Both the position numbers and the translations under genes were made by a program. A stretch of 34,641 bases of DNA. It comes from a virus. Position 1 is the first letter of the stretch, and every line of letters begins with the position of its first letter. The notes beneath the pieces are model-generated. The model did not search any database. It saw only the letters and a list, made by a program, of their open reading frames with translations, and was not told the DNA's origin. Positions 1 through 34,641 of the stretch are shown here, one piece after another. The stretch lies in the IMG/VR virus record IMGVR_UViG_3300045988_070268; one strand, given 5' to 3'.

Positions 1-55
1 CGCGTTTCGGGCTATCCTGTCGAGCGTGATGGAGCCTGAAGCCGTGATGCTCCCG
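1..55. repeat. 55-bp exact terminal direct repeat (identical to 34587..34641); circular-contig overlap
   Basis: Bases 1..55 (cgcgtttcgggctatcctgtcgagcgtgatggagcctgaagccgtgatgctcccg) match the last 55 bases exactly. A 55-bp overlap is typical of a k-mer-length circularisation artefact, not a biological DTR. Confidence 0.9.
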
Positions 56-384
56 ACCTTCTTGCCGTCAATCGTGGCGTTGATGTTGAACGTGTCTGTT
101 AGCTTCGCTGTCTTCGTGCCGTCAGCGTCATGCGACACCCTGTGGACGGTCGTGCCGAGAAGAACCGAGCCGCCCTTCTGGTTGATGCTTCCAGAGGTGT
201 ATCCCTGCGAGACGCCTCCTACCGAGCAGGTGTTCGTTCGCGAAGCGATGTTCAGCGAGCCGATGACGAGCGTGTGCTTGACCGTCACGTCCGAGTAGTT
301 TCCAGCCGCGTTCTGAACCGCGCTCCAATCAGCGCGAAGAGTGTACCCGCGATATGCCCCTGTGATGCTCCCGCTTGATGCCAT
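1..384 (-). CDS. Tail fibre / receptor-binding protein, N-terminal 128 codons; continues in frame across the junction into 34586..33225 (about 581 aa in total)
   Basis: ATG at 382..384 is preceded by GGAAGGGGGAAA. Translation MASSGSITGAYRGYTLRADW...SITLDRIARNA runs without a stop to base 1 and joins in frame (384 nt = 128 codons) to ...TIVTANDFTDE at 34586 downward. Confidence 0.6.
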   Translation of the reverse strand, partial: MASSGSITGAYRGYTLRADWSAVQNAAGNYSDVTVKHTLVIGSLNIASRTNTCSVGGVSQGYTSGSINQKGGSVLLGTTVHRVSHDADGTKTAKLTDTFNINATIDGKKVGSITASGSITLDRIARNA

Positions 385-399
385 TCGATTTCCCCCTTC

Positions 400-2040
400 C
401 TATGCCAGTGCGACGAACGCGATTCCCGTGCTCGCATCCGTCTGAATCGGTACCATCTTCAGCAAGCCACCCACCGCGAGCGAGCTGTTGACGTACCCGT
501 TCGCCATGTAGAGCACGCCATCGGTCACCCCGTAGGTCGGGTTGCCGTTCGCGTCGTATCCCACAAGCCCCTGCGAAGCGTTGATTTCGATGCGCGAGCC
601 GTCGTTCGCCCACATGCGAAGCCCGTCCTTGTCGAGCTGCCCCAGAAGCGAGCCGCCAGCCGAGCGAACCTCCATGACCCCGTTGCCGCTCCCTCCAAGC
701 TTCAGTGTGCCGCCTTTGATTAAATCGGCAACGAAATTGATGACGTTGATGTTCTGCATGTTCATCGTTCCGTCGATGCCCCATGCGCTCTCGAAAGTCC
801 CGTTGATGCCGTTGCGCGAGAACGCTATGCCGTTGTCGTTAATCAGGATGACGTTGTGCGCTTCCTCCTTCGGGAGCGTATCGAGCACCATGATTTTCGA
901 GCCGTCGTAGATGACGTACGAAGCGCCCATCGACTGCGTGATGGTCTGCGTGACCGTATCCGTAACGCCCTGAATAGCGCTGTTGACAGTGCTCTGCGCA
1001 GCGCCTTGCGCGGACGATTGGAGCGTTCCGGCAAGCCCGCTTAACGTCTTGGTGAAGTTCCCGAACTCGATTTCTGCGTACTTGCCGAGGATGCAGTCAT
1101 ACGTGAACCCGATGACGTTTGTCAGGATGTGAACGCCAAGGCGCTCGTCGATGACTTCCACCGTGTCCCCGATGTCGGTCACGCGTTCGAGGTCGGCTTT
1201 CAACGTGTAGTTGACCTTCGGCACGCAGTTTGCGTTGACGTAATCCTGTGCCTGCCTTCTCAGGTCATCGACAAGGGCTTTACGGTATGCCGTCTCGTCG
1301 TTGCCGTAATCGTCTTTCTCGATTGAGGATTGCGAGAACGAGACGGTCTTGGTGAACGGTATGTCCCATTTCTGCTCGCTCTCGACGTAGATTGACGCGC
1401 TCGGGTCTTGGTCGTTCAGCAGAATGCCGTCCTTGCCGACTGGCAGCAGCTTCGTTGCGACGCTGCTCCAATCGTACTTGCACGTGAGTTCCTTCAGGTT
1501 CTTGCGGTACCTGACGGTCACGCCGTTGTCTGCCCCGATTGACTGGCGAAGCTCGATGCGGAAATTGTCGCGCACCAGATGCCCGCCCCAGCGCTCGATA
1601 ACCGTTTGAATCGCTTCGTAAAGCGACTTTCTGACGCAGCGGAACGAGTCAATCGCCTGCACGTCCGAGATGGTTACGAACTCGCTCTTCGGCTCCGTGG
1701 CTTCGTTCAGGTGGTCGAGCGCCGAGTTTGCCGTCATATCGACGACATACGAGTCGGCTATGAGGTAGTTCTTCGAATCATAGAACACGTGCCACGCCTT
1801 GAGCGAAACCTTGGTGCTCTTCTTGGTAACGTCCGATATGCGGAACGCCTGCGCGCCCTGCGGTGTGTCCGCGACGATTATCTTCCCGCTCGTAAGATGG
1901 TCGGCATATTTGGTGCTCGCTTCAAAATCGAGGTAGTAATCGCCGTTGTCCTTCTTCGTGACCTTGGCCTTAGTAGGCAGAACAACCATGTCGCCGTTGG
2001 TGGTGAAGCTCTTGTCGGTCGCTTCGAAAACCCTAATCAT
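400..2040 (-). CDS. Tail-associated protein Tal (phage minor structural protein / anti-receptor family)
   Basis: N-terminus MIRVFEATDKSFTTNGDMVVLPTKAKVTKKDNGDYYLDFEA matches the conserved N-terminal region of siphovirus Tal proteins. ATG at 2038..2040 has RBS ACGGAGGTG; TAG at 400..402. The ORF-track start at 2076 lies inside a hairpin and lacks an RBS. Confidence 0.75.
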   Translation of the reverse strand: MIRVFEATDKSFTTNGDMVVLPTKAKVTKKDNGDYYLDFEASTKYADHLTSGKIIVADTPQGAQAFRISDVTKKSTKVSLKAWHVFYDSKNYLIADSYVVDMTANSALDHLNEATEPKSEFVTISDVQAIDSFRCVRKSLYEAIQTVIERWGGHLVRDNFRIELRQSIGADNGVTVRYRKNLKELTCKYDWSSVATKLLPVGKDGILLNDQDPSASIYVESEQKWDIPFTKTVSFSQSSIEKDDYGNDETAYRKALVDDLRRQAQDYVNANCVPKVNYTLKADLERVTDIGDTVEVIDERLGVHILTNVIGFTYDCILGKYAEIEFGNFTKTLSGLAGTLQSSAQGAAQSTVNSAIQGVTDTVTQTITQSMGASYVIYDGSKIMVLDTLPKEEAHNVILINDNGIAFSRNGINGTFESAWGIDGTMNMQNINVINFVADLIKGGTLKLGGSGNGVMEVRSAGGSLLGQLDKDGLRMWANDGSRIEINASQGLVGYDANGNPTYGVTDGVLYMANGYVNSSLAVGGLLKMVPIQTDASTGIAFVALA

Positions 2041-2063
2041 AGATGCACCTCCGTATATGCCAA

Positions 2064-2091
2064 GGGGGGGGCGCATCGCTGCACCCCCCCC
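2064..2091. repeat. G8-CGCA-TCGC-TGCA-C8 inverted repeat (12-bp stem with one mismatch) just upstream of the Tal RBS
   Basis: ggggggggcgcatcgctgcacccccccc, read directly. Two 8-nt homopolymer tracts form the stem. Confidence 0.6.
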
Positions 2092-2171
2092 ATTCTAGCG
2101 GCGCGTTGTCTCATGTCGCGCAGTTGGCATGTTGTTTTCGGGCGGTCATGCTCCGCCGATGCGCATGGGCG

Positions 2172-2294: not shown

Positions 2295-2295
2295 T

Positions 2296-2616: not shown

Positions 2617-2692
2617 TGTCTACTCCTTAATCACTTGTGCGGTTCCCTCGTTACCGACCCGCAGAACACCTTGGGGGCGTGGGATACGGATG

Positions 2693-3382: not shown

Positions 3383-3392
3383 TCTATCCCTC

Positions 3393-4262
<870 letters not shown>

Positions 4263-6064: not shown

Positions 6065-8746
6065 CTATGCGTAAATCGCGTTCGCGACAGTGCGCTCTAC
6101 GAACTTTCCAGCCACCTCGTCATCGAGCACGATGTGCACTCGCTCAAGGGCTTCGACAACCGCATCGACCGCGCTGGAATTGGCAACGGCACCAGTAGCG
6201 GTCGAAGCGCTGTATGCAAGCTGCGGGTCGCTGACGAACGCCGAAGCATCGGGCATGGCGTCCTGCATCTGACCGACAACGCTGCCCATCTCGTCGGTGA
6301 AGCCCTCGCCGATACCCTGTGCGATGTACTTGCCTACTTGGTCGCGGAAGAGGCGCGAAGGCGAATGGATGCCGAGCGCGCCCTTCATGCCGTCGAGGAT
6401 TCCGCTCGCAAAGCTCTTGACCTTGCCGGCCAGCCAACCGGCGGCGCCAGATATTCCGTTCCAGATTCCGCGCACGATGTCACCGCCGATGCTGAGAACT
6501 CGACCCGGCAGCGAGGCTAATCCGTTGACCACCGCGTTGAACATGTTCCTTGCGCCCTCCGCGCCCTTGCTCGCCATATTCCCAGCCCAAGAACCGAGGT
6601 TCGAGATGACGTTGCCGAGGAAGCTCGCGATGCGCCCGGGCAGCTGCGAGACAAAGTTGATTGCGTTGCTCAGGAACTGCGAGCCGGCACGCGAAGCGTT
6701 GGATGCCATGCTCGAGACCCAGCCAACGACGTTTGAAATGACGTCGCTCATGAAGCTCGCGACGTTCGCGGGCAGGTTCTGGATGAAGTTGATGGCGTTC
6801 GTCACGAACTGCGAGCCTGCCGAAGCGGCATTGCTAGCCATCTGCGCCACCCACGAGACGACCGTGCCGATGACCGTGCCGAGCAGGTAGCCGATGTTAT
6901 ACGGAAGGTTCTGGACGAAGTCCACGACGTTGCTCACGAACTGCGAGCCTGCGTCAGCAGCCTTCGATGCCATATCGGATACCCACCCAGTGACCGTTGC
7001 GATGACGTTGTTCAGCCAGTCGGCGAACATCTGCGGCAGCTGCGAGATGCTCGCGCCGAGGTTCGTAAAGAAGTCGCCGATTGCCTGAATCGCGTTGCCG
7101 ACGAAGTCCTGCACGGCCTGCCAGACGTTCATGACGGCATCGCGGAAGCCCTCGTTCGTATTCCAGAGAACGACGATACCGGCGACCAATGCGGCGATTG
7201 CGGCAACTGCGATGCCGATGGGGGACGAGAGCTGCACCGCGTTCAGAATCCGCTGCGCGACCGTAAGTCCCTCGGTCGCGGTCTTCCAGCTCTTGAACGC
7301 AGTGACCAGCGCTTCGACCTTCTGCGCGACCATGATGGTGCCCAGCGCTGTGGAGATTCCCGCCAGCAGCGGCGCTATCGTCGGCAAGTTGTCCTTCAGC
7401 CACGATATGCCTTTCTTGATTGGCGGGATGACCTTGGAAACGCCGTCGCTGATTGAGTTGATGAAGCCAGTGACGTTCTCACTGCCGATTGCATCGTAAA
7501 TCTGCATCAGGCCATCAGTGACAGCCGCCTGCATGTTTCCCATCGCGCCCTCGAAAGTTGACGTTGAAGTGGCGGCCTGCTGCGCAGCGTCGGTGAAGCC
7601 CAAATCCATGATTGCCTGATTGAACTCGTCAGCCGTGATTTGCCCTTCAGCCATAGCGTCGCGGAAGTTGCCCGTGTAGGCACCGTTCTGCTGCAACGCT
7701 TCTTGCAGCTTGCCGGACGCGCCGGGAATCGCGTCAGCCATCTGGTTCCAGTTCTCCGTCGTGAGCTTGCCGGCACCAGCCGTCTGCGTTAACACCATCG
7801 CCACGCTCTTGAACGTGTCGGCGTTGCCGCCAGCGACTGCGTTCAGGTTGCCGGCGGCCTGCGTCAGACCCGTGTAGTCCTGAATGCCGTTGGCAGCGAG
7901 CTGCGCGGTCGTGTTGGCAACCGTGTCGAGGTCGTACACCGTCTGGTCGGCGTACTCCTTCATATCGTCCTTGGCTTTGGAGATGGTCGCATCGTCGTAG
8001 CCAGCGAAGCTCATGGTCGATTCGAACTTCTTCAGGGCGTCGGACGAGTTGATTGCTTCGCCCGTAAGGCTCTGGACTCCGTTGATGGCGGACATGACGA
8101 TGTTGCCGGCGAGGTTCGCGATAGCGCCCTTCAGAACGGTGAAACCGCCCTCGGCACCGCGTGCCTTATCTCCAGCGTCCTCGACGGCTTTGCCTAGCTT
8201 CTCGCTCGAATCGGACGATTTCCCCATCTGCGATTCGAGGTCTTTGATGTCGGCTTTCGTCTTGTTGATGTCCGTCTGTGCGCTGTTCATCTGCGTGCGC
8301 ATACGCGACATGGAGCGCTCGTTCCGGTCGTTGGCGAGCGTCGATTTCTCGACCTGCTCTTTCAGGTTCGCGACCACTTCAGCTTGCTGCTTGTACTCGG
8401 TCGAAGACGTTCCCAGCTCTCGCCCGATGCGCTCAAGCTCGGATTTCTCCTTGTTGTACGAGGCGACCAGCTGCTCGTGCTTCTCCTTGTTCTGCTGGTA
8501 CTCGCTGCCCATCTTCTCGTACTGCTCGCGGAGAACCGAAAGCTTCGACTTCTGCTCTTCGAGCCGATGCGTTAGCGCCGTCTGCTTGGCGGTCAGCGCT
8601 TCGATGCTCGTGTCGTTCTTGTCGTACTGCGAGGACACGAGCTTGAGTTCGGACGAAACTTCCTTCAGGTTCTGCGAGATGTTGCGCAATGCGGCGCGGT
8701 AGCTTGACTCGCCCGTGAGCTTGACCGCGCCACCGAAACTTGCCAT
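6065..8746 (-). CDS. Tail tape measure protein (893 aa)
   Basis: Large size, a coiled-coil N-terminus, and four tandem repeats of about 44 aa (WVSDMASKAADAGSQFVSNVVDFVQNLP... repeated four times). RBS AGGGGGTGA. It sits after the chaperones G/GT. Confidence 0.9.
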   Translation of the reverse strand: MASFGGAVKLTGESSYRAALRNISQNLKEVSSELKLVSSQYDKNDTSIEALTAKQTALTHRLEEQKSKLSVLREQYEKMGSEYQQNKEKHEQLVASYNKEKSELERIGRELGTSSTEYKQQAEVVANLKEQVEKSTLANDRNERSMSRMRTQMNSAQTDINKTKADIKDLESQMGKSSDSSEKLGKAVEDAGDKARGAEGGFTVLKGAIANLAGNIVMSAINGVQSLTGEAINSSDALKKFESTMSFAGYDDATISKAKDDMKEYADQTVYDLDTVANTTAQLAANGIQDYTGLTQAAGNLNAVAGGNADTFKSVAMVLTQTAGAGKLTTENWNQMADAIPGASGKLQEALQQNGAYTGNFRDAMAEGQITADEFNQAIMDLGFTDAAQQAATSTSTFEGAMGNMQAAVTDGLMQIYDAIGSENVTGFINSISDGVSKVIPPIKKGISWLKDNLPTIAPLLAGISTALGTIMVAQKVEALVTAFKSWKTATEGLTVAQRILNAVQLSSPIGIAVAAIAALVAGIVVLWNTNEGFRDAVMNVWQAVQDFVGNAIQAIGDFFTNLGASISQLPQMFADWLNNVIATVTGWVSDMASKAADAGSQFVSNVVDFVQNLPYNIGYLLGTVIGTVVSWVAQMASNAASAGSQFVTNAINFIQNLPANVASFMSDVISNVVGWVSSMASNASRAGSQFLSNAINFVSQLPGRIASFLGNVISNLGSWAGNMASKGAEGARNMFNAVVNGLASLPGRVLSIGGDIVRGIWNGISGAAGWLAGKVKSFASGILDGMKGALGIHSPSRLFRDQVGKYIAQGIGEGFTDEMGSVVGQMQDAMPDASAFVSDPQLAYSASTATGAVANSSAVDAVVEALERVHIVLDDEVAGKFVERTVANAIYA

Positions 8747-11433: not shown

Positions 11434-11610
11434 CTACTCTTGGGGATTCGCGTCCCCAGACTTCTTGGCGCTCCTGCCGCGCTTGGGCTTCACCTCTTCG
11501 ATGTAGCCCGCCTTCAGCAGGTCGGCCACGATTGCGGCGTCCTCAATCTCACGCGTCTCGCCCTCGTACATCGAGATTGCGCCGCTGAAAGACTTCAGAG
11601 CCTTATGCAT
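11434..11610 (-). CDS. Small Lys-rich protein of 58 aa (MHKALKSFSGAISMYEGETREIEDAAIVADLLKAGYIEEVKPKRGRSAKKSGDANPQE)
   Basis: Not in the ORF track. Its ATG overlaps the capsid stop (ATGCATAA). It has high GC3 and ends 8 nt before the connector RBS. Confidence 0.35.
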   Translation of the reverse strand: MHKALKSFSGAISMYEGETREIEDAAIVADLLKAGYIEEVKPKRGRSAKKSGDANPQE

Positions 11611-12784: not shown

Positions 12785-12785
12785 G

Positions 12786-13418
12786 TTAGCCCTCCTTCAT
12801 CTCGGCAATCATTGCCTTGTATTTGCTGTAGTCGATTTCCTGCTGCGTTTCTTTCTTGGGTTCGCTCGGCTCTTCTCGCGTTTCAGGCTGCGGTGCTTCG
12901 CCGTCATCGTCGAAAGAATCGGAAACGAAAAGTTTCTCTTCCGAATCCTCGCTGCGTGCCATAATCAGCGTCCCATCGTACGCGGGCACCTTGGAACGGT
13001 CGAGGATTGAAACCTCTTCGAGGTCGAGGTCGTTCACCTCGCGCGTCAACATGCCGTTCTCGACCCCGTTCTTCACGTCGCGGTCGAAGAACCCGAACGA
13101 CCATCCGACTAGGTCACCGCGCTTCGCCATCTCGATAACGTCCTTGTCGGAGATGGTGCACTTTGCGCGAAGGCCGATGTTGTCCTCGGTCAGTTCGAGG
13201 TTGCCCTTCTTGGTGCTGCCGAGGTCGCGCGTCCAGTCGTGGTTGAGCAGGACGTGAACATCGTCGTTGCGCTTCAGGGCACGCGCGAACGCGCCCTTCT
13301 TGATTCGCTCGATAAACTTGCCCATGCGCGAAAGCAGCGGTTTGCTGTTCCGCTCCACGGCGTTCACGTAGCCTTCGATTTCAACCGCATCCTCGCGAAT
13401 GTTAATCTGCATTTGCAT
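12786..13418 (-). CDS. Prohead protease (HK97 family)
   Basis: MQMQINIREDAVEIEGYVN...HVLLNHDW...GS...GWSFGF; ATG at 13416..13418 with RBS AAGGGGG. The track's 36-codon extension overlaps the portal gene. Confidence 0.8.
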   Translation of the reverse strand: MQMQINIREDAVEIEGYVNAVERNSKPLLSRMGKFIERIKKGAFARALKRNDDVHVLLNHDWTRDLGSTKKGNLELTEDNIGLRAKCTISDKDVIEMAKRGDLVGWSFGFFDRDVKNGVENGMLTREVNDLDLEEVSILDRSKVPAYDGTLIMARSEDSEEKLFVSDSFDDDGEAPQPETREEPSEPKKETQQEIDYSKYKAMIAEMKEG

Positions 13419-14628: not shown

Positions 14629-14639
14629 CGAATCACCCC

Positions 14640-16325
14640 TTAAATTACCTGAACCGTGAAGTCGGGCATTTGCCCGAAAACCACGTCCTGTTGCAGCAAG
14701 TATACGGCGTTGATAAGCGAAACCACCATATCGACCTTGCCATTGCTTTTCTTCTTGTGCACGTACATGTTGCGGTTCGTGTCGTAGCTGCAACGCGCGT
14801 TCTGAAAGTTGATTTCCAGCAGCTTGTTGTCGGTGTACTCGAACTCGCCGCCTAAAATCTTCTCTTTCAGCAGCTTGGTCGGCGGGTGGAGCACGCTCGA
14901 ATGCTGCCGAATCTCCACCGTGTTGTACCCTGCGCCTTCCAACTTCTGCGCGGTGCTGAGCGCGTTCCATCGGTCGTAGCCGATTGCCTGAACCTGCACG
15001 CCGTACTTTTCCTCTATGCCGAGAATGAAGTCCTCGACAACGGAGTAGTCGATAACCCTGTCACCGCACGCGATGCACTTCCCGGCGCGGACGAACTCGT
15101 TGTAGTCGATTTTCTCGTAGGCGTTCTTCTCGGGAATGCGGCCTTCGGGAACGAACGCGAACACATCGGCGAGGATGTTCCCGTCATCATCGGCGGCAAC
15201 CATCGCGACGGCTGTGTTGTCGTTCGTCTCCGACAAGTCCAACCCGAGATAGACCACGCGCCCGCGCCAGTCGATGTTCGCTACCTTGCAGGCCTGCACG
15301 TCCGCAACGTCGATGAACGTCTCGGTGCCCTGTCCTTGGTAGATGATGTTGCAGTGCTTGGTGAGGAAGTTCTCGCGTGCCGATTCGACCGCGATTGCAT
15401 ACGCCCGCTTCTTCAGCAAATCCTGCCAGATTTCGGGAATCTCAATGCTGACGGGATTCGCCTGACGCATGGCCGAATCGTCCGTCATCCAGTCCTTCGT
15501 CTCGTCAGGCTCGTAGAGCAACGCGAACAGCGAATCGTCCTCGGTGATGCCGTCCAGCACCTTCTTGGCGTATGCAACCTCGTCTTCGAAAGGGTTGTCG
15601 ATGGTCGGGTACTTGGTCGAGATGATGAAGCCGAGTTTGTTCAGGATGTTGAGCTGACCCGACTTCATAGCTTCGATGGCGTAGTTGGTCGGCAGCGCCC
15701 CAACCTCGTCCGCGCAGAACGCGCTCGGAAGTCGGCCATCCATCCTCGACGTTGAATAGCTCAGGGGAACGTACGTCGAGCTTTTCGGCTTGAACGTGAT
15801 GCAGTCGCGCAGAATCTTGAAGCGCCTGTTTCCCTTGTACTCGTAGACAAGCGGGGACGAGCGCAGGGTCTGCGAGATTGCTTCCCTAATCTGCCTTGAA
15901 AGCGCCCCGTCTGGTGCCACGGAAAAGAACTCGGCGAATCGCGGCTCGGTCAGCATCAAGATGATGAAAATCGTCGCTACCGTGTACGTCTTGAAGTTCT
16001 TGCGGGCGATTTCCAGAAGGCCGATTTCGTAACGGCGCTTATCGTGGTTGTCGCGGTAGACGGTGCATAGAACGGCGATGTATAGCAACCACTGATAACC
16101 AGTCGTGCACTCGTACAACGTCTGCCCGGCCTTCAGGCCCTTCGGCATGACGAGCAGCTTCAGGATTGATTCGACCTGTTGAATCTTCGCATCGCTGACG
16201 AAGTGCTTCTCGCTCTTGCCCTCGCAGACGTCCATCCATAGGCGCATCTGCTTCTTGACGTACGCGGGCGTGGTGTCCGCGTCGATTGCGGCCTTGCAGT
16301 ATTCGTAACCCCTATTTCTCGCCAT
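14640..16325 (-). CDS. terL: Terminase large subunit
   Basis: About 560 aa, with ATPase and nuclease regions typical of HK97-like TerL. ATG at 16323..16325 overlaps the terS end. Confidence 0.9.
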   Translation of the reverse strand: MARNRGYEYCKAAIDADTTPAYVKKQMRLWMDVCEGKSEKHFVSDAKIQQVESILKLLVMPKGLKAGQTLYECTTGYQWLLYIAVLCTVYRDNHDKRRYEIGLLEIARKNFKTYTVATIFIILMLTEPRFAEFFSVAPDGALSRQIREAISQTLRSSPLVYEYKGNRRFKILRDCITFKPKSSTYVPLSYSTSRMDGRLPSAFCADEVGALPTNYAIEAMKSGQLNILNKLGFIISTKYPTIDNPFEDEVAYAKKVLDGITEDDSLFALLYEPDETKDWMTDDSAMRQANPVSIEIPEIWQDLLKKRAYAIAVESARENFLTKHCNIIYQGQGTETFIDVADVQACKVANIDWRGRVVYLGLDLSETNDNTAVAMVAADDDGNILADVFAFVPEGRIPEKNAYEKIDYNEFVRAGKCIACGDRVIDYSVVEDFILGIEEKYGVQVQAIGYDRWNALSTAQKLEGAGYNTVEIRQHSSVLHPPTKLLKEKILGGEFEYTDNKLLEINFQNARCSYDTNRNMYVHKKKSNGKVDMVVSLINAVYLLQQDVVFGQMPDFTVQVI

Positions 16326-16683
16326 CGCTGTCACCGTTGACTATCGCCATGAGCGGGTCGCAATCCGAATCGCGTCCCTCGTCCTCCTTGGCGAATCCCT
16401 TGATAATCTTCATCAGTGTCGTGACTGTGCGGTTTGCGCTGTCCGTGGTCTTGTTGTACTCCGTGACCGCTGGGTTGACGTAGATATTCGCGCGGCCCTT
16501 CACATATTCCTTCGTAACGAGCGTGCCCGTCTCGCGGATTGCCGCTTCCAGCTCCGTGAGGTTGTTGAGCTGAACCTGATACCGCTTGAACGTGGTCATA
16601 AAGAAGAAGTTGGTCTGTACGCCCGTCTCTTCGGCGATTTTCAGGATTTCCTGCGCCTGCTCGTCGAGTGTTTTCTTTGCCAT
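16312..16683 (-). CDS. terS: Terminase small subunit (P27 family)
   Basis: 123 aa; ..GRANIYVNPAVTEYNKTTDSANRTVTTLMKIIKGF.. matches the P27-family C-terminal motif. RBS GGAGGT. The adjacent HNH gene suggests cos-type packaging. Confidence 0.65.
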   Translation of the reverse strand: MAKKTLDEQAQEILKIAEETGVQTNFFFMTTFKRYQVQLNNLTELEAAIRETGTLVTKEYVKGRANIYVNPAVTEYNKTTDSANRTVTTLMKIIKGFAKEDEGRDSDCDPLMAIVNGDSDGEK

Positions 16684-16689: not shown

Positions 16690-17538
16690 CTACCTCCGTT
16701 TTCTGTATCTATCGCTGATAATCTTCGGCGTGCACGCGTTCCAGTTTACACGATGGTGCATTCGCCTGTGGTGCGCCCCCATCTCGGCCGCCTTCACGGC
16801 CTGCGGCGAGAATATGACGCTATAGAACGACTTGACGTACGTCCCGCTATCAAGATACATCTCCGACATGCCACCGGCTTGCGACTGCGTGCCTGCCTGG
16901 CAAATCTGCGTGTTGGTCACCGTGAAGAACAGCCCGCCCTTGTTCCCAAGGCTCGTATACGTGTTGACGTCCTCGTTGACCCTACCGACGAACCGGAACC
17001 GCCTTGGGGTCTTGCAGAAAAAGGTGTTCATTGCCTTGCGAGAAAGACCCTTATGGAAGAAATTGTTCGCACCGCCGATGAGGTCACCGCCCTGCGCAAG
17101 CGCGATGGAAAGCGCACCGCTCGAATCAAGGAACTCGATACAATCCTCGAACAGCCTATCGAGGTCTTTGCAATCGGTGTGCTTGAGCTGCGCACCGGAA
17201 ATGTACCTGAACATGAACGCGGTGTAGTCATCGTCGAGTTCGAGGAAGTATTCTAAACCCAACTTCTCGGCGAGTTCGAAGCAGACGTTGCGAGCATAGA
17301 CGATTGCTCGCCTGTCCTCCGATAGGTCTGCTGTGTCGAACTTCTTGGACTCTGCAAGTTTGTCGAACTGAATCACCTTGTCGCCGTACAGCTCTCGATA
17401 CCTGTCTGCCGTGTCATCCTCGTTGTCGATGACGATATAGAGCTTGCCGGTGTAGTTCCCCATATTCAGAGCACGAGGCGTCTTGATGTTGTCAGGCCTG
17501 CCATGCGTGAGGATGGATACTGCAAAGTCACTTCGCAT
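16690..17538 (-). CDS. GT-A fold glycosyltransferase-like protein (282 aa)
   Basis: The N-terminal strand is AVSILTHGRPD (compare VSIIIPTYNRP). It carries the motifs LYIVIDNEDDTAD and FLELDDDY (DXD), and VGRVNEDVNTYTSLG (compare GWGGEDVDLCLRL, the xED motif). RBS GGGAGGTGG. All of this was recognised by eye, without a database search. Confidence 0.5.
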   Translation of the reverse strand: MRSDFAVSILTHGRPDNIKTPRALNMGNYTGKLYIVIDNEDDTADRYRELYGDKVIQFDKLAESKKFDTADLSEDRRAIVYARNVCFELAEKLGLEYFLELDDDYTAFMFRYISGAQLKHTDCKDLDRLFEDCIEFLDSSGALSIALAQGGDLIGGANNFFHKGLSRKAMNTFFCKTPRRFRFVGRVNEDVNTYTSLGNKGGLFFTVTNTQICQAGTQSQAGGMSEMYLDSGTYVKSFYSVIFSPQAVKAAEMGAHHRRMHHRVNWNACTPKIISDRYRKRR

Positions 17539-17878: not shown

Positions 17879-18127
17879 GTGACTTTTGTCTTGTCCATGC
17901 TTGAAAATCTCCTTTCTCGATACATTCGAAGGCTCTATGGGGAAACTCTCGAAAGAATCCCCGATAATCGCCCTTATTGAATGATAATCGCAGTTTTAAG
18001 CCCAAAAACCGCCGTTTTCCAGAAAGGCCCAGCAGATAGAAAATTTAGTGTCCGGAGCGAGGCGGTCAGATGGCCCGCCCGTTCGGTCGCTCCGACCCCA
18101 TGGCAGGGGGGATTGTCTTCCGACAGG
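17879..18127. other. 250-bp non-coding region between the HNH endonuclease and the glycosyltransferase/terS genes; candidate cos / packaging-initiation region
   Basis: No credible ORF lies here. HNH plus P27 terS phages use cos ends located between HNH and terS. Nothing specific to a cos site was recognised in the sequence. Confidence 0.25.
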
Positions 18128-18520
18128 TTACCCTTCCGCATCTCGGCACGCAGCTCGCCTCTTCGCGGCCAGCCTGCGTAGGTATGCTTTGCCGAGCTCG
18201 CCATCGTCCGCCATCCTGTGGTGCATCCTGCATAGGCACACGAGGTTATCGTCCTCTATCAACCCGTCCGGGTCTTCCCTCAGCTTCTCGATATGGTGGA
18301 CCTCCAGCCCCTGCGCGGTGACCTTCCCTTGGTCCCTGCAGACCTCGCACATCCAGTGCGCGTCTTCCCTGACCTGTAGGCTCTTCCTCTTCCACCTTGA
18401 TGTGAAGCGCAGCCTGTCGGCTCCCGTCCTCTCGTAACGGTAGGTGGGCTTCCTCATCGGGCATGGCTCGTCGTATGCGTGCATCTTCCCGCACCTGCTG
18501 CATGCCCTGTATGCTCCCAT
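18128..18520 (-). CDS. HNH endonuclease (terminase-associated)
   Basis: ..EVHHIEKL...NLVCLCRMHH.. carries the HNH motif and zinc ligands (CxxC...CxxC). 130 aa, immediately upstream of the packaging genes. Confidence 0.8.
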   Translation of the reverse strand: MGAYRACSRCGKMHAYDEPCPMRKPTYRYERTGADRLRFTSRWKRKSLQVREDAHWMCEVCRDQGKVTAQGLEVHHIEKLREDPDGLIEDDNLVCLCRMHHRMADDGELGKAYLRRLAAKRRAACRDAEG

Positions 18521-25874: not shown

Positions 25875-26696
25875 CTATCGCGTCTTCGGAGCGTACTTCC
25901 CAAGGCCAAGGACCTTGTCCAGTTCCTCGTCTCCGCTGCTCTGGTAGTAGTAATCAGCGTCTATCTTTCGATTGAAGCCACTTGTTGTTTCACGTGAAAC
26001 AGCTCCCTTCTTTTCTTCATTTTCGCGTCGCGCCCAGTTGCGTATGGTAGCCAGATGGTTCGCGTACTTCTTGCCCTTCGACTCCATGTATGAGCTGAGC
26101 TTTTCGATTCTCTCTTCCCAGTCAGTTGGGAACTCGGCTCGTAGCTTCTCCATGTCTGAGTCACTGAGAAGGACGTTCTGGTACTCTCCGTACTTGTGGC
26201 GCGGCTCCCTCTTTCGCGAGGGCTTATCGCATTTGATAGATGGATTTGTGATAGACGGGTCACTGATAGAAGAATCTTTGTTGCTACTTTGAAGTGGCAC
26301 GGGGTCACACTTTGAAGTAGTACCCCCGTCGCACTTTGAAGTAGTACCCGTGCCACTTTGAAGTTGTACGGCACGTTCAGCCGGGCGGTAGTACGCTCGC
26401 GTGCCCACTTCGCTGTTCTTCACTTGTCGATGGTACAGCAGCCCGAATTTGACAAGCTTTTTCAGCCTGCGCCTTACGGCTTCGGGGTTGAGGTGCATAA
26501 TCGGCAGCTCTTCGCATACGTACGAAGCGTTGACCCACCCATACTCGGCGCCGTCTATCACAAGCTTCTCCATGCCGCCAAAATAGAAGTCCATAATCCA
26601 TCGCAGAATCATGAGGTCGCGTTCATCTATTGATTGGTGCTCGTCGCACAGATTAAGGACTTGCTCTTGGCTGAAGCCAAATATCGTGTATTTCAT
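25875..26696 (-). CDS. Replisome organiser / replication initiator-like protein with an internal iteron array
   Basis: MKYTIFGFSQEQVLNLCDEHQSIDERDLMILRWIM... has a winged-helix-like N-terminus. The tandem peptide repeat GTGTTSKCDGGTTSKCD is encoded by the iterons. The gene precedes the helicase loader. Confidence 0.55.
   Translation of the reverse strand: MKYTIFGFSQEQVLNLCDEHQSIDERDLMILRWIMDFYFGGMEKLVIDGAEYGWVNASYVCEELPIMHLNPEAVRRRLKKLVKFGLLYHRQVKNSEVGTRAYYRPAERAVQLQSGTGTTSKCDGGTTSKCDPVPLQSSNKDSSISDPSITNPSIKCDKPSRKREPRHKYGEYQNVLLSDSDMEKLRAEFPTDWEERIEKLSSYMESKGKKYANHLATIRNWARRENEEKKGAVSRETTSGFNRKIDADYYYQSSGDEELDKVLGLGKYAPKTR
26233..26369. repeat. Iteron array: 4x (C/T)ACTTTGAAGT(A/G/T)G(T/C)AC at 22-24-bp spacing, plus 3x TGATAGA; putative origin of replication inside the initiator gene
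   Basis: Copies lie at 26285..26300, 26308..26323, 26332..26347 and 26354..26369, read directly. Confidence 0.6.
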
Positions 26697-26698: not shown

Positions 26699-27061
26699 TT
26701 ACATCCACCCCTCGTATTCTTCCACGAATGTCGGGTTCATTTTGACGGATACTATTTCGCCGTCACCAATTGGGGTTGGCACGACAACTCCAGCGTCTAT
26801 ACGGTTTCCCCTTGCGTCAAAGATTGCTATATCGGCAATACCAACACGGTCGATATCCATAAGCACCAGCGATGGCGGGATGTTGAAATATATGTACTTG
26901 TTGAAAAATTCGGGGTAGTACATCACGAACTTGTCTTTTTCGCTCAGGCTCCTTCTGTACATGAGTTCCCCTGTCACGACTGCCATTTCAACGGGATATT
27001 CAACGCCTTCCATCTTTGATAGCTTTCTTGCCAGAATGACGCTGTACGAATGCCTGTACAT
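26699..27061 (-). CDS. Hypothetical 120-aa protein
   Basis: ATG at 27059..27061 with RBS GGAGG 4 nt upstream. Composition is protein-like. Confidence 0.45.
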   Translation of the reverse strand: MYRHSYSVILARKLSKMEGVEYPVEMAVVTGELMYRRSLSEKDKFVMYYPEFFNKYIYFNIPPSLVLMDIDRVGIADIAIFDARGNRIDAGVVVPTPIGDGEIVSVKMNPTFVEEYEGWM

Positions 27062-27076
27062 GCCGCCTCCAAAACG

Positions 27077-27111
27077 AAACCCCGCCGTAGGTAACAGCTA
27101 CGACGGGGTTT
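27077..27111 (-). terminator. Stem-loop aaaccccgccgtag-gtaacag-ctacgacggggttt between early genes, overlapping the RBS of the downstream gene; attenuator/terminator-like
   Basis: 14-bp stem with one G-U pair; the minus-strand RNA is followed by CGUUUUGG. Confidence 0.4.
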
Positions 27112-29468: not shown

Positions 29469-29740
29469 TATTCGTTGTCCTCCTCGCCGGACAGCTCTTT
29501 GAGCTTCTTGTCGTACGCGTCCCCCATGATGTGGCGCATAACGGCGCTGGTGGTCGCATCCTCCCACGTGAGGTATTTTTTCGCCCAGTCAGTGCCCGCC
29601 CTGTTGAGTAGAACGTCCTTGACCATTTCAAGGTCGAATTTCGCCTTCAGCAGATTCTCGAATTCTGCTTTCGTAATCTGAACCGTGTTTTCCATTTTTG
29701 TCGTTCCTTTCTCTACTGTAAGTTGAACCGTGTTTTCCAT
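29468..29740 (-). CDS. Hypothetical 90-aa protein whose RBS and first 5 codons are tandemly duplicated (MENTVQLTVEKGTTKMENTVQITKAEF...)
   Basis: Two identical RBS+ATG units (AGAGAGGAACGACAAAAATGGAAAACACGGTT) lie 45 nt apart, with ATGs at 29738..29740 and 29693..29695. Both are in frame. Confidence 0.5.
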   Translation of the reverse strand: MENTVQLTVEKGTTKMENTVQITKAEFENLLKAKFDLEMVKDVLLNRAGTDWAKKYLTWEDATTSAVMRHIMGDAYDKKLKELSGEEDNE

Positions 29741-29759
29741 TTTTGTCGTTCCTCTCTCT
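29681..29759. repeat. Near-perfect 34-bp direct repeat (period 45 bp) duplicating an RBS and start codon
   Basis: aaccgtgttttccatttttgtcgttcct(t/c)tctct occurs at 29681..29714 and 29726..29759. Confidence 0.8.
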
Positions 29760-30264
29760 ATCTGTCTTTCGCGAATACGTAGGCCCTGCAACCCTTGGTA
29801 TCGTTGTAGATGCTCAATCCCGTTATGATGCCGTTCTCGATGCGAACCTTCTCGCAGCGGAACTTGTCGTAGCATTGCATGCGCCCGTTCTTCCCGGGCT
29901 TGACGCTGCACTTCTCGGCGGGAACCCAGATGAACGGTGCTTCATAGAGCTCGCGCCCGATGCCCAGCATGAACCCAGCCCGCTTGAACGCATCGCTTGC
30001 ACGGCCCTTCTCGGCTTCCATGTTGGAAGGCGTTCCGTTGGACTGCTTGGCAATCCACTGTTGTTTCTCCGCGTCCCAGACCTCGATAGTGCAGAACAGC
30101 TCGCCGTTGATGCTCTGGTACGAGTCGCGCCACCCCATCACGCCGAAAGTCTCGTCAAGGATGCGCATGTCGCAACGGCTGTCTTTGTAAAGCAGAAGCG
30201 ACACGCCCTTCTGGCTGCACTGTGCCACGCGAACCTCGATTTCGTCTGCCCTCAGCTCGCGCAT
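29758..30264 (-). CDS. Rad52/Sak-like single-strand annealing protein
   Basis: ..ADEIEVRVAQ...LLLYKDSRCDMRILDETFGVMGWRDSY... matches the Rad52 N-domain pattern (IEWR... DAR..M.RLDE.FG..GW...Y). Confidence 0.55.
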   Translation of the reverse strand: MRELRADEIEVRVAQCSQKGVSLLLYKDSRCDMRILDETFGVMGWRDSYQSINGELFCTIEVWDAEKQQWIAKQSNGTPSNMEAEKGRASDAFKRAGFMLGIGRELYEAPFIWVPAEKCSVKPGKNGRMQCYDKFRCEKVRIENGIITGLSIYNDTKGCRAYVFAKDR

Positions 30265-31093: not shown

Positions 31094-31104
31094 ACACTCA
31101 CCCC

Positions 31105-31136: not shown

Positions 31137-31147
31137 CAGTAATTTCC

Positions 31148-31258: not shown

Positions 31259-31314
31259 TACCTTAGCAGACGTGGTGGTACCAACGTTTAGCGGGGAAAG
31301 GAGTCGAATTTTGG

Positions 31315-31623
31315 ATGGCATTTACTGACAATTTGCAGGCGCTTATGAGCGCAAAAGGGATATCCCGTCGAAAATTGGCGAAGGAGTGCGGGATAAGCCC
31401 CAGCGCGGTGAACAGCTGGTTCAATCGGTCGGCTGAGAACATCAGCTTGCAGACGCTGAAGAAGCTGTCGGATTACTTCGGTATAGGCATCGAGGAGCTT
31501 GTCCACGGAAAGCAACAACGGCGTGAGATAACATTTTCAAGCGGCGCGTACACGGACGCAGAGCTTGACCAGATAAAGCAGTTCGCACACTTTTTGATAA
31601 GGCAACGAGAAAGGAATGATTAA
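31315..31623 (+). CDS. cI-like HTH (XRE-family) repressor (102 aa, no peptidase domain)
   Basis: ..GISRRKLAKECGISPSAVNSWFNR.. is an HTH. RBS AAAGGAG. It is divergent from cro and immediately upstream of the integrase. Confidence 0.65.
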   Translation: MAFTDNLQALMSAKGISRRKLAKECGISPSAVNSWFNRSAENISLQTLKKLSDYFGIGIEELVHGKQQRREITFSSGAYTDAELDQIKQFAHFLIRQRERND

Positions 31624-31626
31624 TGG

Positions 31627-33129
31627 ATGGCATACGCAATGTACCTGCGCAAGTCACGCGCAGACGAGGAACTAGGATACGAGAACACGCTTGAACGACA
31701 CGAGGAGATGCTGCGCAACCTTGCGGCGCAGACTGGAATCCACGTAGACGAATCGCATATCTACAGGGAAATTGTCTCGGGTGAGAGCATCGAAGCCCGC
31801 CCGCAGATGCAGAAGCTGCTGAAGGCGGTCGAGATGGGACTTTACACTGGCGTGCTCTGCATAGAGCTTGAACGTCTCAGCCGTGGTGACGGAGCCGACC
31901 AGCAAAGGATACTGAAGGCGTTCCAGTTCTCCGACACAAAGATAATCACGTTGACAAAGACATACGGCTTGGCTGGGGACGATTCATTCGATGAGGAATT
32001 CTTCGAATTCGGGCTTTTCATGAGCCGCCGCGAGTACAAGATGATAAAAAAGCGCCTGTATCGCGGAAGGATACAAGCGCAGAAGGAAGGCTATTTTATC
32101 GGGTCGCGCCCGCCTTACGGGTACGGCAAGAAGAGAATCGGGAAGGGCTATGTGCTGGTACCGAACGAGAACGCAGAAGTCGTAAGGTACATCTTCAGAA
32201 GGTACGCGCAACGCGAGACGGCGGCGAACATCCTTCACGACCTCAACAACATGGCGATACCGACCGTGACTGGCACGAAGTGGACGGCCTACGCTATCCG
32301 CGAGGTCATCAAGAACCAGACGTACATCGGAAAGATAAACACAAAGACGGTTCGCTGCGAGAAGTCGATAAAGGACGGGAAGGTCGTGCAAAGATGGCTC
32401 AACAACTACGAGCCAGTGACCGTCGAAGGAAGGCACGAGCCTATAGTGGACGAAGAGTTGTTCTGGAAGTGCCGGGAAGTCCGCGACAGCGAGAAGACGA
32501 GGGTGAAGGCAGACCAGACGCTGAAGAACCCGCTTGCATCAATCATGTTCTGCGAAGTGTGCGGCAAGACGATTCGCCGCACACATTACGACTATAAGGG
32601 CGAAAGGACTTTCTACTATGGTTGCGTCACATCGCGATGCGAGACGAAGAACACATTCACGCACATCGTATATGACATGGTGATTGACGAACTCAAGAAG
32701 GAGCTTGAACGCCAGCAGGTCATGCTAGCCGATTACGACACATCACCAGAGCATGACGCGAGAAAAGACGAATTGGAAATGCTTAAAGCAGAGCTTGGCA
32801 AGAAGCAGATGATGTTGGAAAGGGCATGTGAAGCCTATGAGACAGGGATATATGACAGACAGACTTACTTGGAGCGAGTGCAAAAGGTCAATGCTGCCAA
32901 GGTCGAGCTACAAGCAAGAATCGAGACATTGGAGAAAGACATAGAGGAAAGTGAGGAAAGGCATGAGAAAGCCGTCCCAATCCTCACAAAGGCAGTCGAG
33001 GAGATGCACACCCTCACACCCAAGGAACAGAACGATTTACTGAAGATGATTATCGATAAAATCACATATAAAAAGACTGAATCAGGTGCAGCAATAGAAC
33101 CGGAACTTGAAATCAGTCTCAAAATATAA
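31627..33129 (+). CDS. int: Large serine recombinase (integrase)
   Basis: N-terminal resolvase domain (YLRKSRADEE, with a catalytic Ser context), a recombinase domain, a zinc ribbon CEVCGK...YYGCVTSRC, and a C-terminal coiled coil; 500 aa. Confidence 0.85.
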   Translation: MAYAMYLRKSRADEELGYENTLERHEEMLRNLAAQTGIHVDESHIYREIVSGESIEARPQMQKLLKAVEMGLYTGVLCIELERLSRGDGADQQRILKAFQFSDTKIITLTKTYGLAGDDSFDEEFFEFGLFMSRREYKMIKKRLYRGRIQAQKEGYFIGSRPPYGYGKKRIGKGYVLVPNENAEVVRYIFRRYAQRETAANILHDLNNMAIPTVTGTKWTAYAIREVIKNQTYIGKINTKTVRCEKSIKDGKVVQRWLNNYEPVTVEGRHEPIVDEELFWKCREVRDSEKTRVKADQTLKNPLASIMFCEVCGKTIRRTHYDYKGERTFYYGCVTSRCETKNTFTHIVYDMVIDELKKELERQQVMLADYDTSPEHDARKDELEMLKAELGKKQMMLERACEAYETGIYDRQTYLERVQKVNAAKVELQARIETLEKDIEESEERHEKAVPILTKAVEEMHTLTPKEQNDLLKMIIDKITYKKTESGAAIEPELEISLKI

Positions 33130-33139
33130 TCTTTCCACC

Positions 33140-33175
33140 ATCATGAGGGGATGCATTTATGCACCCCTCCATGAT
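33140..33175. other. Imperfect 17-bp inverted repeat ATCATGAGGGGATGCAT | ATGCACCCCTCCATGAT between convergent int and fibre genes; bidirectional terminator and/or candidate attP core
   Basis: Read directly. It lies 11 nt after the int stop. Confidence 0.35.
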
Positions 33176-33224
33176 TCCAGAGACATAATTAAGGCGGATA
33201 GCTCAAGTGCTACCAGCCTTTTTG

Positions 33225-34586
33225 CTATGCAGTGCGTTTCCACATGTACACGGCCAGATATGGCGGCATGTTGTCGTGCGCCTTGTTCCCGCCAGCGTAC
33301 AGCGTGTTGACGTTGCCGCTGTAGCCCTTCTTGTCGTTCGCCTGAACTGTCATGGACGAGGTTGTCCCGCCCGTGGTGTCGTAGTTGTCAAGAGTGTGGT
33401 TGTGCGACGGCATTTCGGACGTCGTGAGCTGGTGGGCTGCTTCGCCGCCAGTGCTCCCAGCAGCGTAGGTGTCATCGGCACCGAGCAGGAACCTGCCCCC
33501 GATGCGCTCCCACGTCCCGCCGAACAGAGAAGCTGGATTGACATCTGTCACGCTCAGGTAGATTGCCCCGACCGGGTACGCCCCCTGCGCGGTGAGCCAT
33601 GCCGAATCGCCGAGCTGGAATGCGTTCTCCTGAGTCGGCAGGCAGTTCACGCCGACGCTGGATTTCTTGGTGTCGATGAAGAACGCTGGGATGCCCTTGC
33701 CCAAAGTCAAGTTGTATTCGGTCGTTTCCAGCTTGTCCGCGACGGTCACAACGAAGTCGTAAGCTGAATCCCTGTCGCACGTCACCGTGGATTGGATTGA
33801 ATCCTTCAGCTCGATTGGCGTTCCGTAGCTAGAATCCGAGACCTTCTTGAACTTCGCGGAGATTGTCACGGCATTCTTGCCGTTCAGGTACGAGTACCGC
33901 GCGCTCGCGGTGATGTACGTTTCAGGCTCGAAGTTGTTCAGGCGGTGCAGGTCGATGACGGCAGTTGGTGCGCTGTAATCATCGACGGTCACCTGAACAG
34001 ATTGACTCGCAGTGAACCCACGACTGTCGGTTGCCGTGACGGTCAGAGCCTGAGAATACGAGACGTCCACAGCCCCCAGCGAGACGGCCCCCGCAGCAGT
34101 CACGGTTTTCGTCACCCCGCCGAAGGCGATAGCATATCTCGCAATAGTCGCGCCATTCTTCGCCGTCGCTGTCGGCACGGTCACGGTCAATACTGAGTGG
34201 TTCTGGACGATTCGCGACTTGTCACCAGTCACCGCCACCGTGGCGGCATTGGTGTCCTCGTACGAGACTTCCCCAAGCGCTGGCGCTGCGTCAACGACGT
34301 TCATCTTCCTTTCGGCCCGCGAGTAGTACGCGGTGCCGTCGATTGTCGTTTTCAGAACGTACGTGACCTTCAGCGTCGGCGAGTCCTTGCTCGCGTTACG
34401 CAGGGTCGTGCGCTCAGAATCTGTGAGCTGCATCGTGTACGAGCCGCCTGCACCGCTTATCGCACCTGCCCTAGTGATGCTGCCGCCTGCGAATTCTATT
34501 GACACGTCGCACGAGAACGAGGACGGATTGCTGTAGGTCAGCGTCGGGTTCGTCTCGTCCGTGAAGTCGTTGGCGGTCACGATTGT
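33225..34586 (-). CDS. Tail fibre / receptor-binding protein, C-terminal 453 codons (continuation of 384..1) with a C-terminal phage tail-collar domain
   Basis: ..LTTSEMPSHNHTLDNYDTTGG...GGNKAHDNMPPYLAVYMWKRTA matches the collar-domain signature (HxH...NMPPY). The frame stays open upstream of the track's GTG through 34586 into base 384..1. Confidence 0.7.
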   Translation of the reverse strand, partial: TIVTANDFTDETNPTLTYSNPSSFSCDVSIEFAGGSITRAGAISGAGGSYTMQLTDSERTTLRNASKDSPTLKVTYVLKTTIDGTAYYSRAERKMNVVDAAPALGEVSYEDTNAATVAVTGDKSRIVQNHSVLTVTVPTATAKNGATIARYAIAFGGVTKTVTAAGAVSLGAVDVSYSQALTVTATDSRGFTASQSVQVTVDDYSAPTAVIDLHRLNNFEPETYITASARYSYLNGKNAVTISAKFKKVSDSSYGTPIELKDSIQSTVTCDRDSAYDFVVTVADKLETTEYNLTLGKGIPAFFIDTKKSSVGVNCLPTQENAFQLGDSAWLTAQGAYPVGAIYLSVTDVNPASLFGGTWERIGGRFLLGADDTYAAGSTGGEAAHQLTTSEMPSHNHTLDNYDTTGGTTSSMTVQANDKKGYSGNVNTLYAGGNKAHDNMPPYLAVYMWKRTA

Positions 34587-34641
34587 CGCGTTTCGGGCTA
34601 TCCTGTCGAGCGTGATGGAGCCTGAAGCCGTGATGCTCCCG
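34587..34641. repeat. Second copy of the 55-bp terminal overlap
   Basis: Identical to 1..55. Confidence 0.9.

What the first reader, a model, noticed from the sequence alone, without database searches (positions are those of the whole stretch)
1..34641. Window is a closed circular phage genome; one gene spans the artificial junction
The first and last 55 bp are identical. The fibre ORF is continuous in frame from 384..1 into 34586..33225 (128 + 453 codons). Every linear gene caller will therefore split this gene into a C-terminal piece with a false GTG start and an orphan N-terminal fragment. A 55-bp overlap equals a common assembler k-mer size, which indicates a circular or circularly permuted (headful) or cos genome and not true direct terminal repeats.
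Basis: seen in the sequence. Interest (0 to 1): 0.55.

Follow-up and report, generated by a model that had tools for sequence, protein, structure and literature searches.

The report
Assembler overlap closing a phage genome

Summary
Window 1-55 equals 34587-34641 exactly, and the 55-mer occurs nowhere else. Removing one copy gives a 34,586-bp circle. On that circle a minus-strand ORF runs from the ATG at 384, through the junction, to the stop at 33225 (581 aa; DUF859 + Gp10_C tail protein).

An independent MEGAHIT contig of the same phage (99.7% identical) carries this 581-aa gene intact in its interior. That contig closes on itself elsewhere, with its own 119-nt overlap, which equals its k. 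Three relatives at 88-91% identity contain the junction sequence internally. So the repeat is a k-mer overlap, not a real terminal repeat and not a chimeric join.

Two refinements:
- The break point is probably not arbitrary. Position 55 is the last base shared by a long and a short (318-nt in-frame deletion) allele of the fibre gene, which is a branch node of the assembly graph.
- The real virion ends are probably cohesive (cos) ends at about 18059-18069, roughly 18 kb from the junction. The evidence is an HK97-type HNH/TerS/TerL module and relatives' linear contigs that stop on both sides of the same 11-nt gap.

The phage is an uncultured temperate siphovirus from the human gut. Its host was not identified. 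Interest is low.

The parts
1..55 (.). Terminal 55-mer, copy 1. Its last 12 nt (44-55) are the left copy of the direct repeat that bounds the fibre indel.
   Evidence: Exact prefix = suffix of 55 nt; unique otherwise.
34587..34641 (.). Terminal 55-mer, copy 2. It is redundant and should be trimmed before annotation; the unique circle is 1-34586.
1..384 (-). First 128 codons of the junction-spanning tail fibre/baseplate gene (ATG at 384-382).
   Evidence: Pfam DUF859 aligns to residues 10-361 and PHROG 372 to residues 1-457, each as a single stretch across residue 128.
33225..34586 (-). Last 453 codons plus the stop of the same gene. The C-terminal Gp10_C domain covers aa 464-580.
   Evidence: The exact 581-aa product (P0001) was called on an independent contig.
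56..373 (-). A 318-nt in-frame segment (aa 9-114) that is present here and absent from the short alleles. It is bounded by the 12-nt direct repeat GTGATGCTCCCG at 44-55 and 362-373.
   Evidence: L026 ends exactly at position 55.
400..2076 (-). Tal-like tail protein (Prophage_tail domain), immediately upstream of the fibre gene.
16690..17538 (-). TAGT-family glycosyltransferase in the cargo slot between cos and TerS. A 327-nt in-frame deletion allele (about 16729-17055) exists in a near-identical genome.
16312..16683 (-). Small terminase candidate (weak Terminase_4 match; position upstream of TerL).
14640..16334 (-). Large terminase, HK97 type.
   Evidence: Pfam TerL_ATPase + TerL_nuclease. Its only PDB hit is 6Z6D. 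It is 72% identical to TerL of L. delbrueckii group-b phages.
18059..18069 (-). Predicted cos overhang (plus strand GAGGCGGTCAG), the likely true virion ends.
   Evidence: Relatives' linear contigs end and start on either side of this 11-nt gap with no overlap, and eight other contigs read through it.
18128..18520 (-). HNH endonuclease, at the predicted right end of the virion chromosome.
   Evidence: Pfam HNH. Role of HNH in HK97 cos cleavage: PMC9410871.
31627..33129 (+). Large serine recombinase (integrase), convergent with the fibre gene. A Cro/C1-type HTH repressor candidate lies at 31315-31623, just upstream on the same strand.
33140..33175 (.). A 36-bp imperfect palindrome centred on TT, between the int stop and the fibre stop. 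It is a candidate attP or a bidirectional terminator.
   Evidence: function not tested.

Best explanation
The window is a complete 34,586-bp genome of an uncultured temperate siphovirus from the human gut. A de Bruijn-graph assembler with a final k of 55 output it as a closed path, so the first 55 bases are repeated at the end.

The cut falls inside a tail fibre/baseplate gene, which is intact (581 aa) on the circle. The cut position was probably set by the assembly graph. Position 55 is the last base common to a long allele and a short allele (318 nt deleted, in frame) of that gene, so the terminal 55-mer is the branching node where a path would start and end (inferred).

The DNA in virions is most likely linear, with 11-nt cohesive ends at about 18059-18069. 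These would be cut by an HK97-type terminase assisted by an HNH endonuclease and rejoined into a circle after infection (inferred from relatives). That explains why assemblers can close the circle.
For: Shown directly:
- The 55-nt terminal identity is exact and the 55-mer is unique elsewhere.
- A 581-aa ORF is continuous across the junction, and family profiles align in one piece across residue 128.
- Contig k119_76102 is 99.7% identical over 18 kb across the junction, holds the identical 581-aa product, and has its own 119-nt terminal overlap elsewhere.
- L001-L003 contain the 92-nt junction internally and are collinear across it.
- The 120 best-scoring relatives listed (88-94% identical) are all 584-585 aa, many on 33-36 kb contigs.
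- The gene set is complete: integrase, repressor, recombination/replication, lysis, packaging, head and tail modules.

Branch node:
- The short allele in L004/L025, L021 and L022 has boundaries at 55 and 362.
- MEGAHIT contig L026 begins exactly at 55 and ends exactly at 17055, the boundary of a second indel.

cos ends:
- An HNH gene lies upstream of TerS/TerL, and the portal, S78 protease and HK97-fold capsid are present.
- TerL's only PDB hit is 6Z6D.
- Four genome-length linear contigs have both ends in the HNH-TerS gap, separated by 11-17 nt with no overlap. Four starts and two ends fall on identical alignment columns.
Against: - No reads were available, so junction coverage and the coexistence of both alleles in the window's own sample are not shown.
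- The assembler and its k are not recorded; k = 55 is inferred from the overlap length.
- The cos site is inferred from relatives (about 75-90% identical in that region), not from this genome.
- Clustered contig ends can also arise at graph branches, although a gap without overlap argues against that here.
- No integrated copy or host was found, so the temperate lifestyle rests on gene content alone.
Confidence: 0.92

Rival explanations
1. The 55 bp are a genuine direct terminal repeat of a linear genome (as in T7-like or T5-like phages), so the fibre gene is truly interrupted at the physical ends.
For: Identical sequence at both ends is what a terminal repeat would look like in an assembly.
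Against: The repeat lies inside a coding sequence that is continuous in independent contigs. Another assembly of the same phage has a 119-nt overlap at a different place. Relatives' physical ends cluster about 18 kb away. TerL is HK97 type and has an HNH partner.
Confidence: 0.01
2. The closure is a mis-assembly: a chimeric join of two molecules, or a collapse of an internal repeat in the fibre gene.
For: Tail fibre genes often contain repeats, and the same gene carries a 12-nt direct repeat and an indel polymorphism next to the junction.
Against: The 55-mer is unique in the genome and the 12-nt repeat is far shorter than k. The exact junction plus flanks is internal to three diverged contigs and to a 99.7%-identical contig from another assembler. 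Protein family profiles align across it without a break.
Confidence: 0.01
3. The genome is packaged by the headful mechanism and is circularly permuted. That would be the reason it assembles as a circle, and there would be no fixed ends.
For: A circular assembly alone cannot distinguish headful from cos packaging. No reads from this sample were analysed.
Against: The HNH + Terminase_4-like TerS + HK97-type TerL module is present, and HNH promotes cos cleavage in HK97 (PMC9410871). Genome-length relatives end at one fixed site, with an 11-nt gap and no overlap.
Confidence: 0.06
4. The cut position at 1/55 is arbitrary, and its coincidence with the fibre indel boundary is chance. The source sample would then contain only the long allele.
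For: Assemblers may start a circular path anywhere. The alleles were seen in other assemblies, not demonstrably in this one.
Against: The match is exact to the base. The last base of the 55-mer is the last base shared by the two alleles, which by chance has odds of roughly 1 in 10^4 on a 34.6-kb circle. An independent contig (L026) is cut at the same base, and also at the boundary of the second indel.
Confidence: 0.12

Closest known systems
k-mer terminal overlap on circular contigs from de Bruijn-graph assemblers (metaSPAdes default final k = 55; MEGAHIT k up to 119-141). Tools such as CheckV and the IMG/VR pipeline read it as a 'DTR' sign of completeness (own knowledge).
   Same: The overlap is exact, its length equals a standard k, it is unique elsewhere, and the sequence is contiguous across it in other assemblies. 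A second assembler gives a different overlap length (119) at a different place.
   Different: Nothing essential. The one addition is that the cut coincides with a strain-level indel branch point and so is not random.
HK97-type cos packaging: an HNH endonuclease (gp74) plus TerS/TerL cutting cohesive ends (PMC9410871; Kala et al. 2014, as cited there).
   Same: The HNH gene sits at the predicted right end and TerS/TerL at the left end. The Phage_portal protein, S78 protease and HK97-fold capsid are present. TerL's only hit among solved structures is 6Z6D. Relatives have fixed ends with an 11-nt gap.
   Different: Similarity to the 6Z6D TerL is remote (E = 8e-14). A variable cargo slot, here a 90-aa ORF plus a TAGT glycosyltransferase, lies between cos and TerS. 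Overhang length and polarity are inferred, not measured.
Lactobacillus delbrueckii group-b phages (genus Cequinquevirus: c5, LL-Ku, Ld3, Ld17, Ld25A, phiLdb, PMBT4).
   Same: These are the closest cultured relatives of the head and packaging module: TerL is 72% and the capsid protein 67% identical at the amino-acid level. Genome sizes are similar (30-34 kb).
   Different: There is no nucleotide-level similarity. The window is 56% G+C and carries a serine integrase, a repressor and a different tail tip. The source is human gut and the host is unknown.
Lambda-like temperate genome layout.
   Same: The order is lysis genes, cos, terminase, head, tail, fibre, then an integrase on the opposite strand, followed by the repressor/early-gene switch and the early genes.
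   Different: The integrase is a large serine recombinase, not a tyrosine recombinase. No integrated copy was found.

Membership tests
Assembler k-mer overlap on a circular(isable) contig | Exact identity of the two contig ends, with a length equal to an assembler k. | tested here: met
   The overlap is 55 nt and exact. That 55 is the metaSPAdes default final k is own knowledge; the assembler used for the window is not recorded.
Assembler k-mer overlap on a circular(isable) contig | The repeated sequence occurs once in the real genome, and its flanks are contiguous in independent assemblies. | tested here: met
   The 55-mer is unique. The junction is internal in L001-L003 and L023.
Assembler k-mer overlap on a circular(isable) contig | The position and length of the overlap depend on the assembler, not on the biology. 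| tested here: met
   k119_76102 has a 119-nt overlap at circle position ~26961-27079.
Assembler k-mer overlap on a circular(isable) contig | Reads from the source sample span the junction at normal depth. | not testable with these tools
   No reads were available.
True direct-terminal-repeat phage genome | The repeat coincides with the physical DNA ends and does not interrupt a gene. | tested here: not met
   The repeat lies inside a 581-aa ORF. Relatives' ends lie about 18 kb away.
HK97-type cos packaging | An HNH endonuclease gene next to TerS/TerL, with an HK97-like TerL. | tested here: met
   HNH at 18128-18520; TerL domains; only PDB hit 6Z6D, E = 8e-14.
HK97-type cos packaging | Fixed genome ends at one site with a short single-stranded overhang. 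| tested here: inconclusive
   This is supported in relatives: four genome-length contigs have both ends at the site, separated by an 11-17 nt gap with no overlap. It was not tested on this genome's own DNA.
Headful (pac) packaging, circularly permuted | No fixed ends, and a pac-type terminase. | tested here: not met
   Relatives have fixed ends, and the TerL is HK97 type with an HNH partner. The evidence is indirect for this genome.
Temperate phage with a large serine integrase | Resolvase + Recombinase + zinc-ribbon domain architecture, with a repressor nearby. | tested here: met
Temperate phage with a large serine integrase | An integrated copy flanked by attL/attR in a host genome. | tested here: not met
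   No relative of the fibre protein was found in 185,579 species-representative genomes. The closest integrases there are 34-39% identical. All relatives seen are in the excised configuration, with int next to the fibre gene.

The most novel reading that the evidence does not exclude
The long and short alleles of the fibre gene (an in-frame loss of aa 9-114 between 12-nt direct repeats) and of the TAGT glycosyltransferase (an in-frame loss of 109 aa) may coexist within single gut samples and recur in diverged lineages. If so, they could be a maintained functional dimorphism of the tail tip and of a cos-proximal cargo gene, and not decay. The recurrent microhomology-mediated deletion would then act as a one-way switch of adsorption or modification phenotype.
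Probability: 0.1. Interest if true: 0.4.

Novelty: already known. Interest (0 to 1): 0.12.

Why it matters
The value is practical. If the 55-bp copy is not trimmed and the sequence is not rotated, the probable receptor-binding tail protein is annotated as two fragments, or as a truncated protein with a false start, and 18 codons are counted twice.

The overlap should not be reported as a biological terminal repeat. A sensible start for the record is the predicted cos site (about 18059-18069, minus strand), which places the small terminase near the left end.

The case also shows that the cut point of a 'circular' contig can mark a strain-level indel. The deposited sequence is then one path through a mixed population, and the fibre and TAGT alleles it carries should be checked against the reads.

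Tried and rejected
- Megablast of 24 kb against 50,697 deposited phages gave only a 296-nt tape-measure hit, so there is no close cultured relative.
- A genome-contig scan with the fibre protein found nothing. A scan with the integrase found only 34-39% identical relatives in Clostridia MAGs, so neither a host nor an integrated copy was identified.
It was recovered through the homology search as P0001.
- I tested whether the window's 318-nt segment was borrowed from a co-assembled relative. It is not identical to any of L001-L003 (99% then about 90%), so there is no sign of a chimeric path through those strains.
- Literature searches for the packaging type of the L. delbrueckii group-b phages returned nothing usable.
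- BLAST of the Ld3 record start against the predicted cos region was not significant. Only a shared TTTTTTGGAAAA-like motif at a similar distance from the left end was seen by eye, which is weak.
- No tRNA genes were found, so a tRNA-linked attachment site is not indicated.
- The promoter/terminator scan around int and the fibre gene was at chance level.
Full report
**Observation**

The first and last 55 bases of the window are identical, and 55 is the longest exact prefix = suffix. Allowing 3 mismatches, the 55-mer occurs only at 1-55 and 34587-34641, with none expected in shuffles. It appears as one two-copy family with a spacing of 34,586.

After dropping one copy, the minus-strand ORF that starts at ATG 384-382 runs through the junction in frame to a stop at 33225. 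A strictly linear ORF finder reports only 33225..34580, 451 aa, with a GTG start.

**Is the junction real?**

Four lines of evidence say yes.

1. Pfam DUF859 (residues 10-361) and PHROG 372 'tail protein' (residues 1-457) each align as a single stretch across residue 128. The C-terminus carries a Gp10_C domain.
2. The 92-nt sequence made of the 55-mer plus its unique flanks occurs exactly, and internally, in three IMG/VR contigs. These are 88-91% identical overall and collinear from about 27-30 kb, through the junction, to about 1.4-1.8 kb.
3. The exact 581-aa protein (P0001) was called on ENA contig k119_76102 (ERZ27256365, 34,698 nt). That contig aligns to the window at 99.7% identity in one 18-kb block, from circle position 10384 through the junction to 26961.
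4. The same contig has its own exact terminal overlap of 119 nt, matching the k in its name, at circle position about 26961-27079.

Two assemblers therefore close the same circle at different places, each with an overlap equal to its own k. That is the signature of an assembler artefact on a circularisable genome. It excludes both a true terminal repeat and a chimeric join.

The 120 best-scoring relatives listed are all 584-585 aa, at 88-94% identity, and many sit on contigs of 33-36 kb. Where sample labels are given, they are human gut metagenomes.

**What the genome is**

The G+C content is 56%. Nearly all genes are on the minus strand. Reading that strand, the order is:

- a Dp-1-type holin, then a GH25 + CW_7 + LysM endolysin (18581-19642)
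- an HNH endonuclease (18128-18520)
- a 327-nt non-coding gap
- a 90-aa ORF, then a TAGT-family glycosyltransferase (16690-17538)
- a small-terminase candidate (16312-16683) and the large terminase (14640-16334)
- the portal, an S78 protease and an HK97-fold capsid protein
- the tail genes, including the tape measure (6065-8746), Dit, a collagen-repeat protein and a Tal-like protein (400-2076)
- the junction-spanning fibre gene

A large serine integrase (31627-33129) is convergent with the fibre gene, on the plus strand. It is preceded by a Cro/C1-type repressor candidate (31315-31623). The early region on the minus strand (about 31093 down to 20000) encodes Sipho_Gp157, Rad52-like, SSB, dUTPase, IstB/DnaC-like and Lar proteins.

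This is a complete, lambda-like temperate siphovirus layout. No deposited phage is similar at the nucleotide level. The head module's nearest cultured relatives are the Lactobacillus delbrueckii group-b phages, with TerL 72% and the capsid protein 67% identical.

No host or integrated copy was found. Every relative examined has int next to the fibre gene, which is the excised configuration.

**Why the cut is where it is**

A near-identical genome, ENA ERZ824575 NODE_868 (loci L004/L025), is 99.7-100% identical but lacks 318 nt of the fibre gene. The identity to the window runs up to position 55 and resumes at 362. The 12-nt repeat GTGATGCTCCCG is present at 44-55 and 362-373. Its product equals the window's protein minus residues 9-114, apart from one substitution, giving 475 aa.

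The same short form, with the same boundaries, occurs in two more diverged contigs, L021 and L022.

The window's terminal 55-mer therefore ends on the last base shared by the long and short alleles. In a k = 55 de Bruijn graph this 55-mer is the branching node, and a closed path would naturally start and end there.

There is independent support. MEGAHIT contig L026 (run ERR911975) begins exactly at circle position 55. It ends exactly at 17055, which is the boundary of a second in-frame deletion (327 nt, TAGT shortened from 282 to 173 aa) carried by NODE_868.

That both alleles coexist in the window's own sample is an inference; I had no reads. The long form is the canonical one: it matches the family profile from its N-terminus, and all 120 listed relatives are long.

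**True ends**

The combination of an HNH gene, a Terminase_4-like TerS, TerL, a Phage_portal protein, an S78 protease and an HK97-fold capsid is the HK97 arrangement. TerL's only match among solved structures is 6Z6D, a 'Terminase large subunit', which I take to be the HK97 TerL structure described in PMC9410871. In HK97 the HNH protein gp74 promotes cos cleavage (PMC9410871).

I anchored on TerS and HNH in IMG/VR relatives. Four genome-length linear contigs (32,891-34,822 nt) have both ends inside the HNH-TerS gap, with no terminal overlap. In an alignment:

- four contig starts fall on the same column, equivalent to window 18058
- two contig ends fall on the same column, equivalent to window 18070
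- this leaves an 11-nt gap, window 18059-18069 (plus strand GAGGCGGTCAG)
- eight other contigs read straight through the site

A gap with no overlap is what fixed ends with a 3' single-stranded extension would give after end polishing. The polarity is inferred, and the site was not tested on this genome's own DNA.

On this map the assembly junction lies about 18 kb from the left end, in the middle of the virion chromosome. The stretch between cos and TerS varies from 184 to 2,582 nt among relatives, so it is a cargo slot.

**Comparison with known systems, and verdict**

The finding is the well-known k-mer overlap of circular contigs.

The statement that every linear gene caller will invent a GTG start is too strong. 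Callers that permit partial genes produce two edge fragments instead.

Nothing here is mechanistically new. The useful outputs are:

- the corrected 581-aa gene
- the instruction to trim 34587-34641 and rotate the sequence
- the predicted cos site
- the warning that the fibre and TAGT alleles in the contig are one path through a polymorphic population

Interest is low.

Noticed in passing
window 16690-17538 (TAGT) and 17528-17800 (90-aa ORF): A TET-associated glycosyltransferase family protein (Pfam TAGT, E = 2e-35; PHROG 842) sits between the predicted cos site and TerS. No TET/JBP dioxygenase or DNA methyltransferase Pfam hit appears on any called gene of the near-identical contigs. It is therefore an orphan TAGT in a variable cargo slot, which is 184-2582 nt long in relatives.
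   Followed up: partly
window ~16729-17055: A near-identical genome (ERZ824575 NODE_868) carries a 327-nt in-frame deletion that removes TAGT residues ~162-270. There is only 1 nt of microhomology at the boundary. Contig L026 ends exactly at this boundary.
   Followed up: partly
window 3393-4262: A tail-module protein with collagen triple-helix repeats (Pfam Collagen, E = 8e-17), encoded by 9-nt periodic DNA repeats. Another assembly of the same phage (NODE_868) breaks in this region.
   Followed up: partly
window 26304-26371 and 29673-29760: Three 22-nt direct repeats lie inside the 277-aa gene next to the IstB/DnaC-like gene and look like origin iterons. Separately, there are two tandem 43-nt copies (93% identical) about 3.3 kb further on in the early region (29673-29760).
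   Followed up: no
window 33300-34200 (middle and C-terminal part of the fibre gene): Relatives whose flanks are 98-100% identical drop to 69-90% identity here. This mosaic pattern is typical of receptor-binding diversification by recombination.
   Followed up: partly
window 11603-16334 (TerL to capsid): The head and packaging proteins are 67-72% identical to those of Lactobacillus delbrueckii group-b phages, although this genome is 56% G+C and comes from gut metagenomes. The next best cultured match is 47% (a Flavonifractor phage).
   Followed up: partly
window 33140-33175: A 36-bp imperfect palindrome centred on TT lies between the convergent integrase and fibre genes. It is a candidate attP for the serine integrase or a bidirectional terminator. 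No attB or integrated copy was available to test it.
   Followed up: no
window 18020-18045, and Ld3 record (L024) positions 41-58: A TTTTTTGGAAAA(C/A)GG-like motif lies about 35-45 nt inside the predicted left end in this phage family. It also lies at a similar distance from the start of the Lactobacillus phage Ld3 record. It may be a terminase-binding element, but the similarity is weak and was seen by eye.
   Followed up: no
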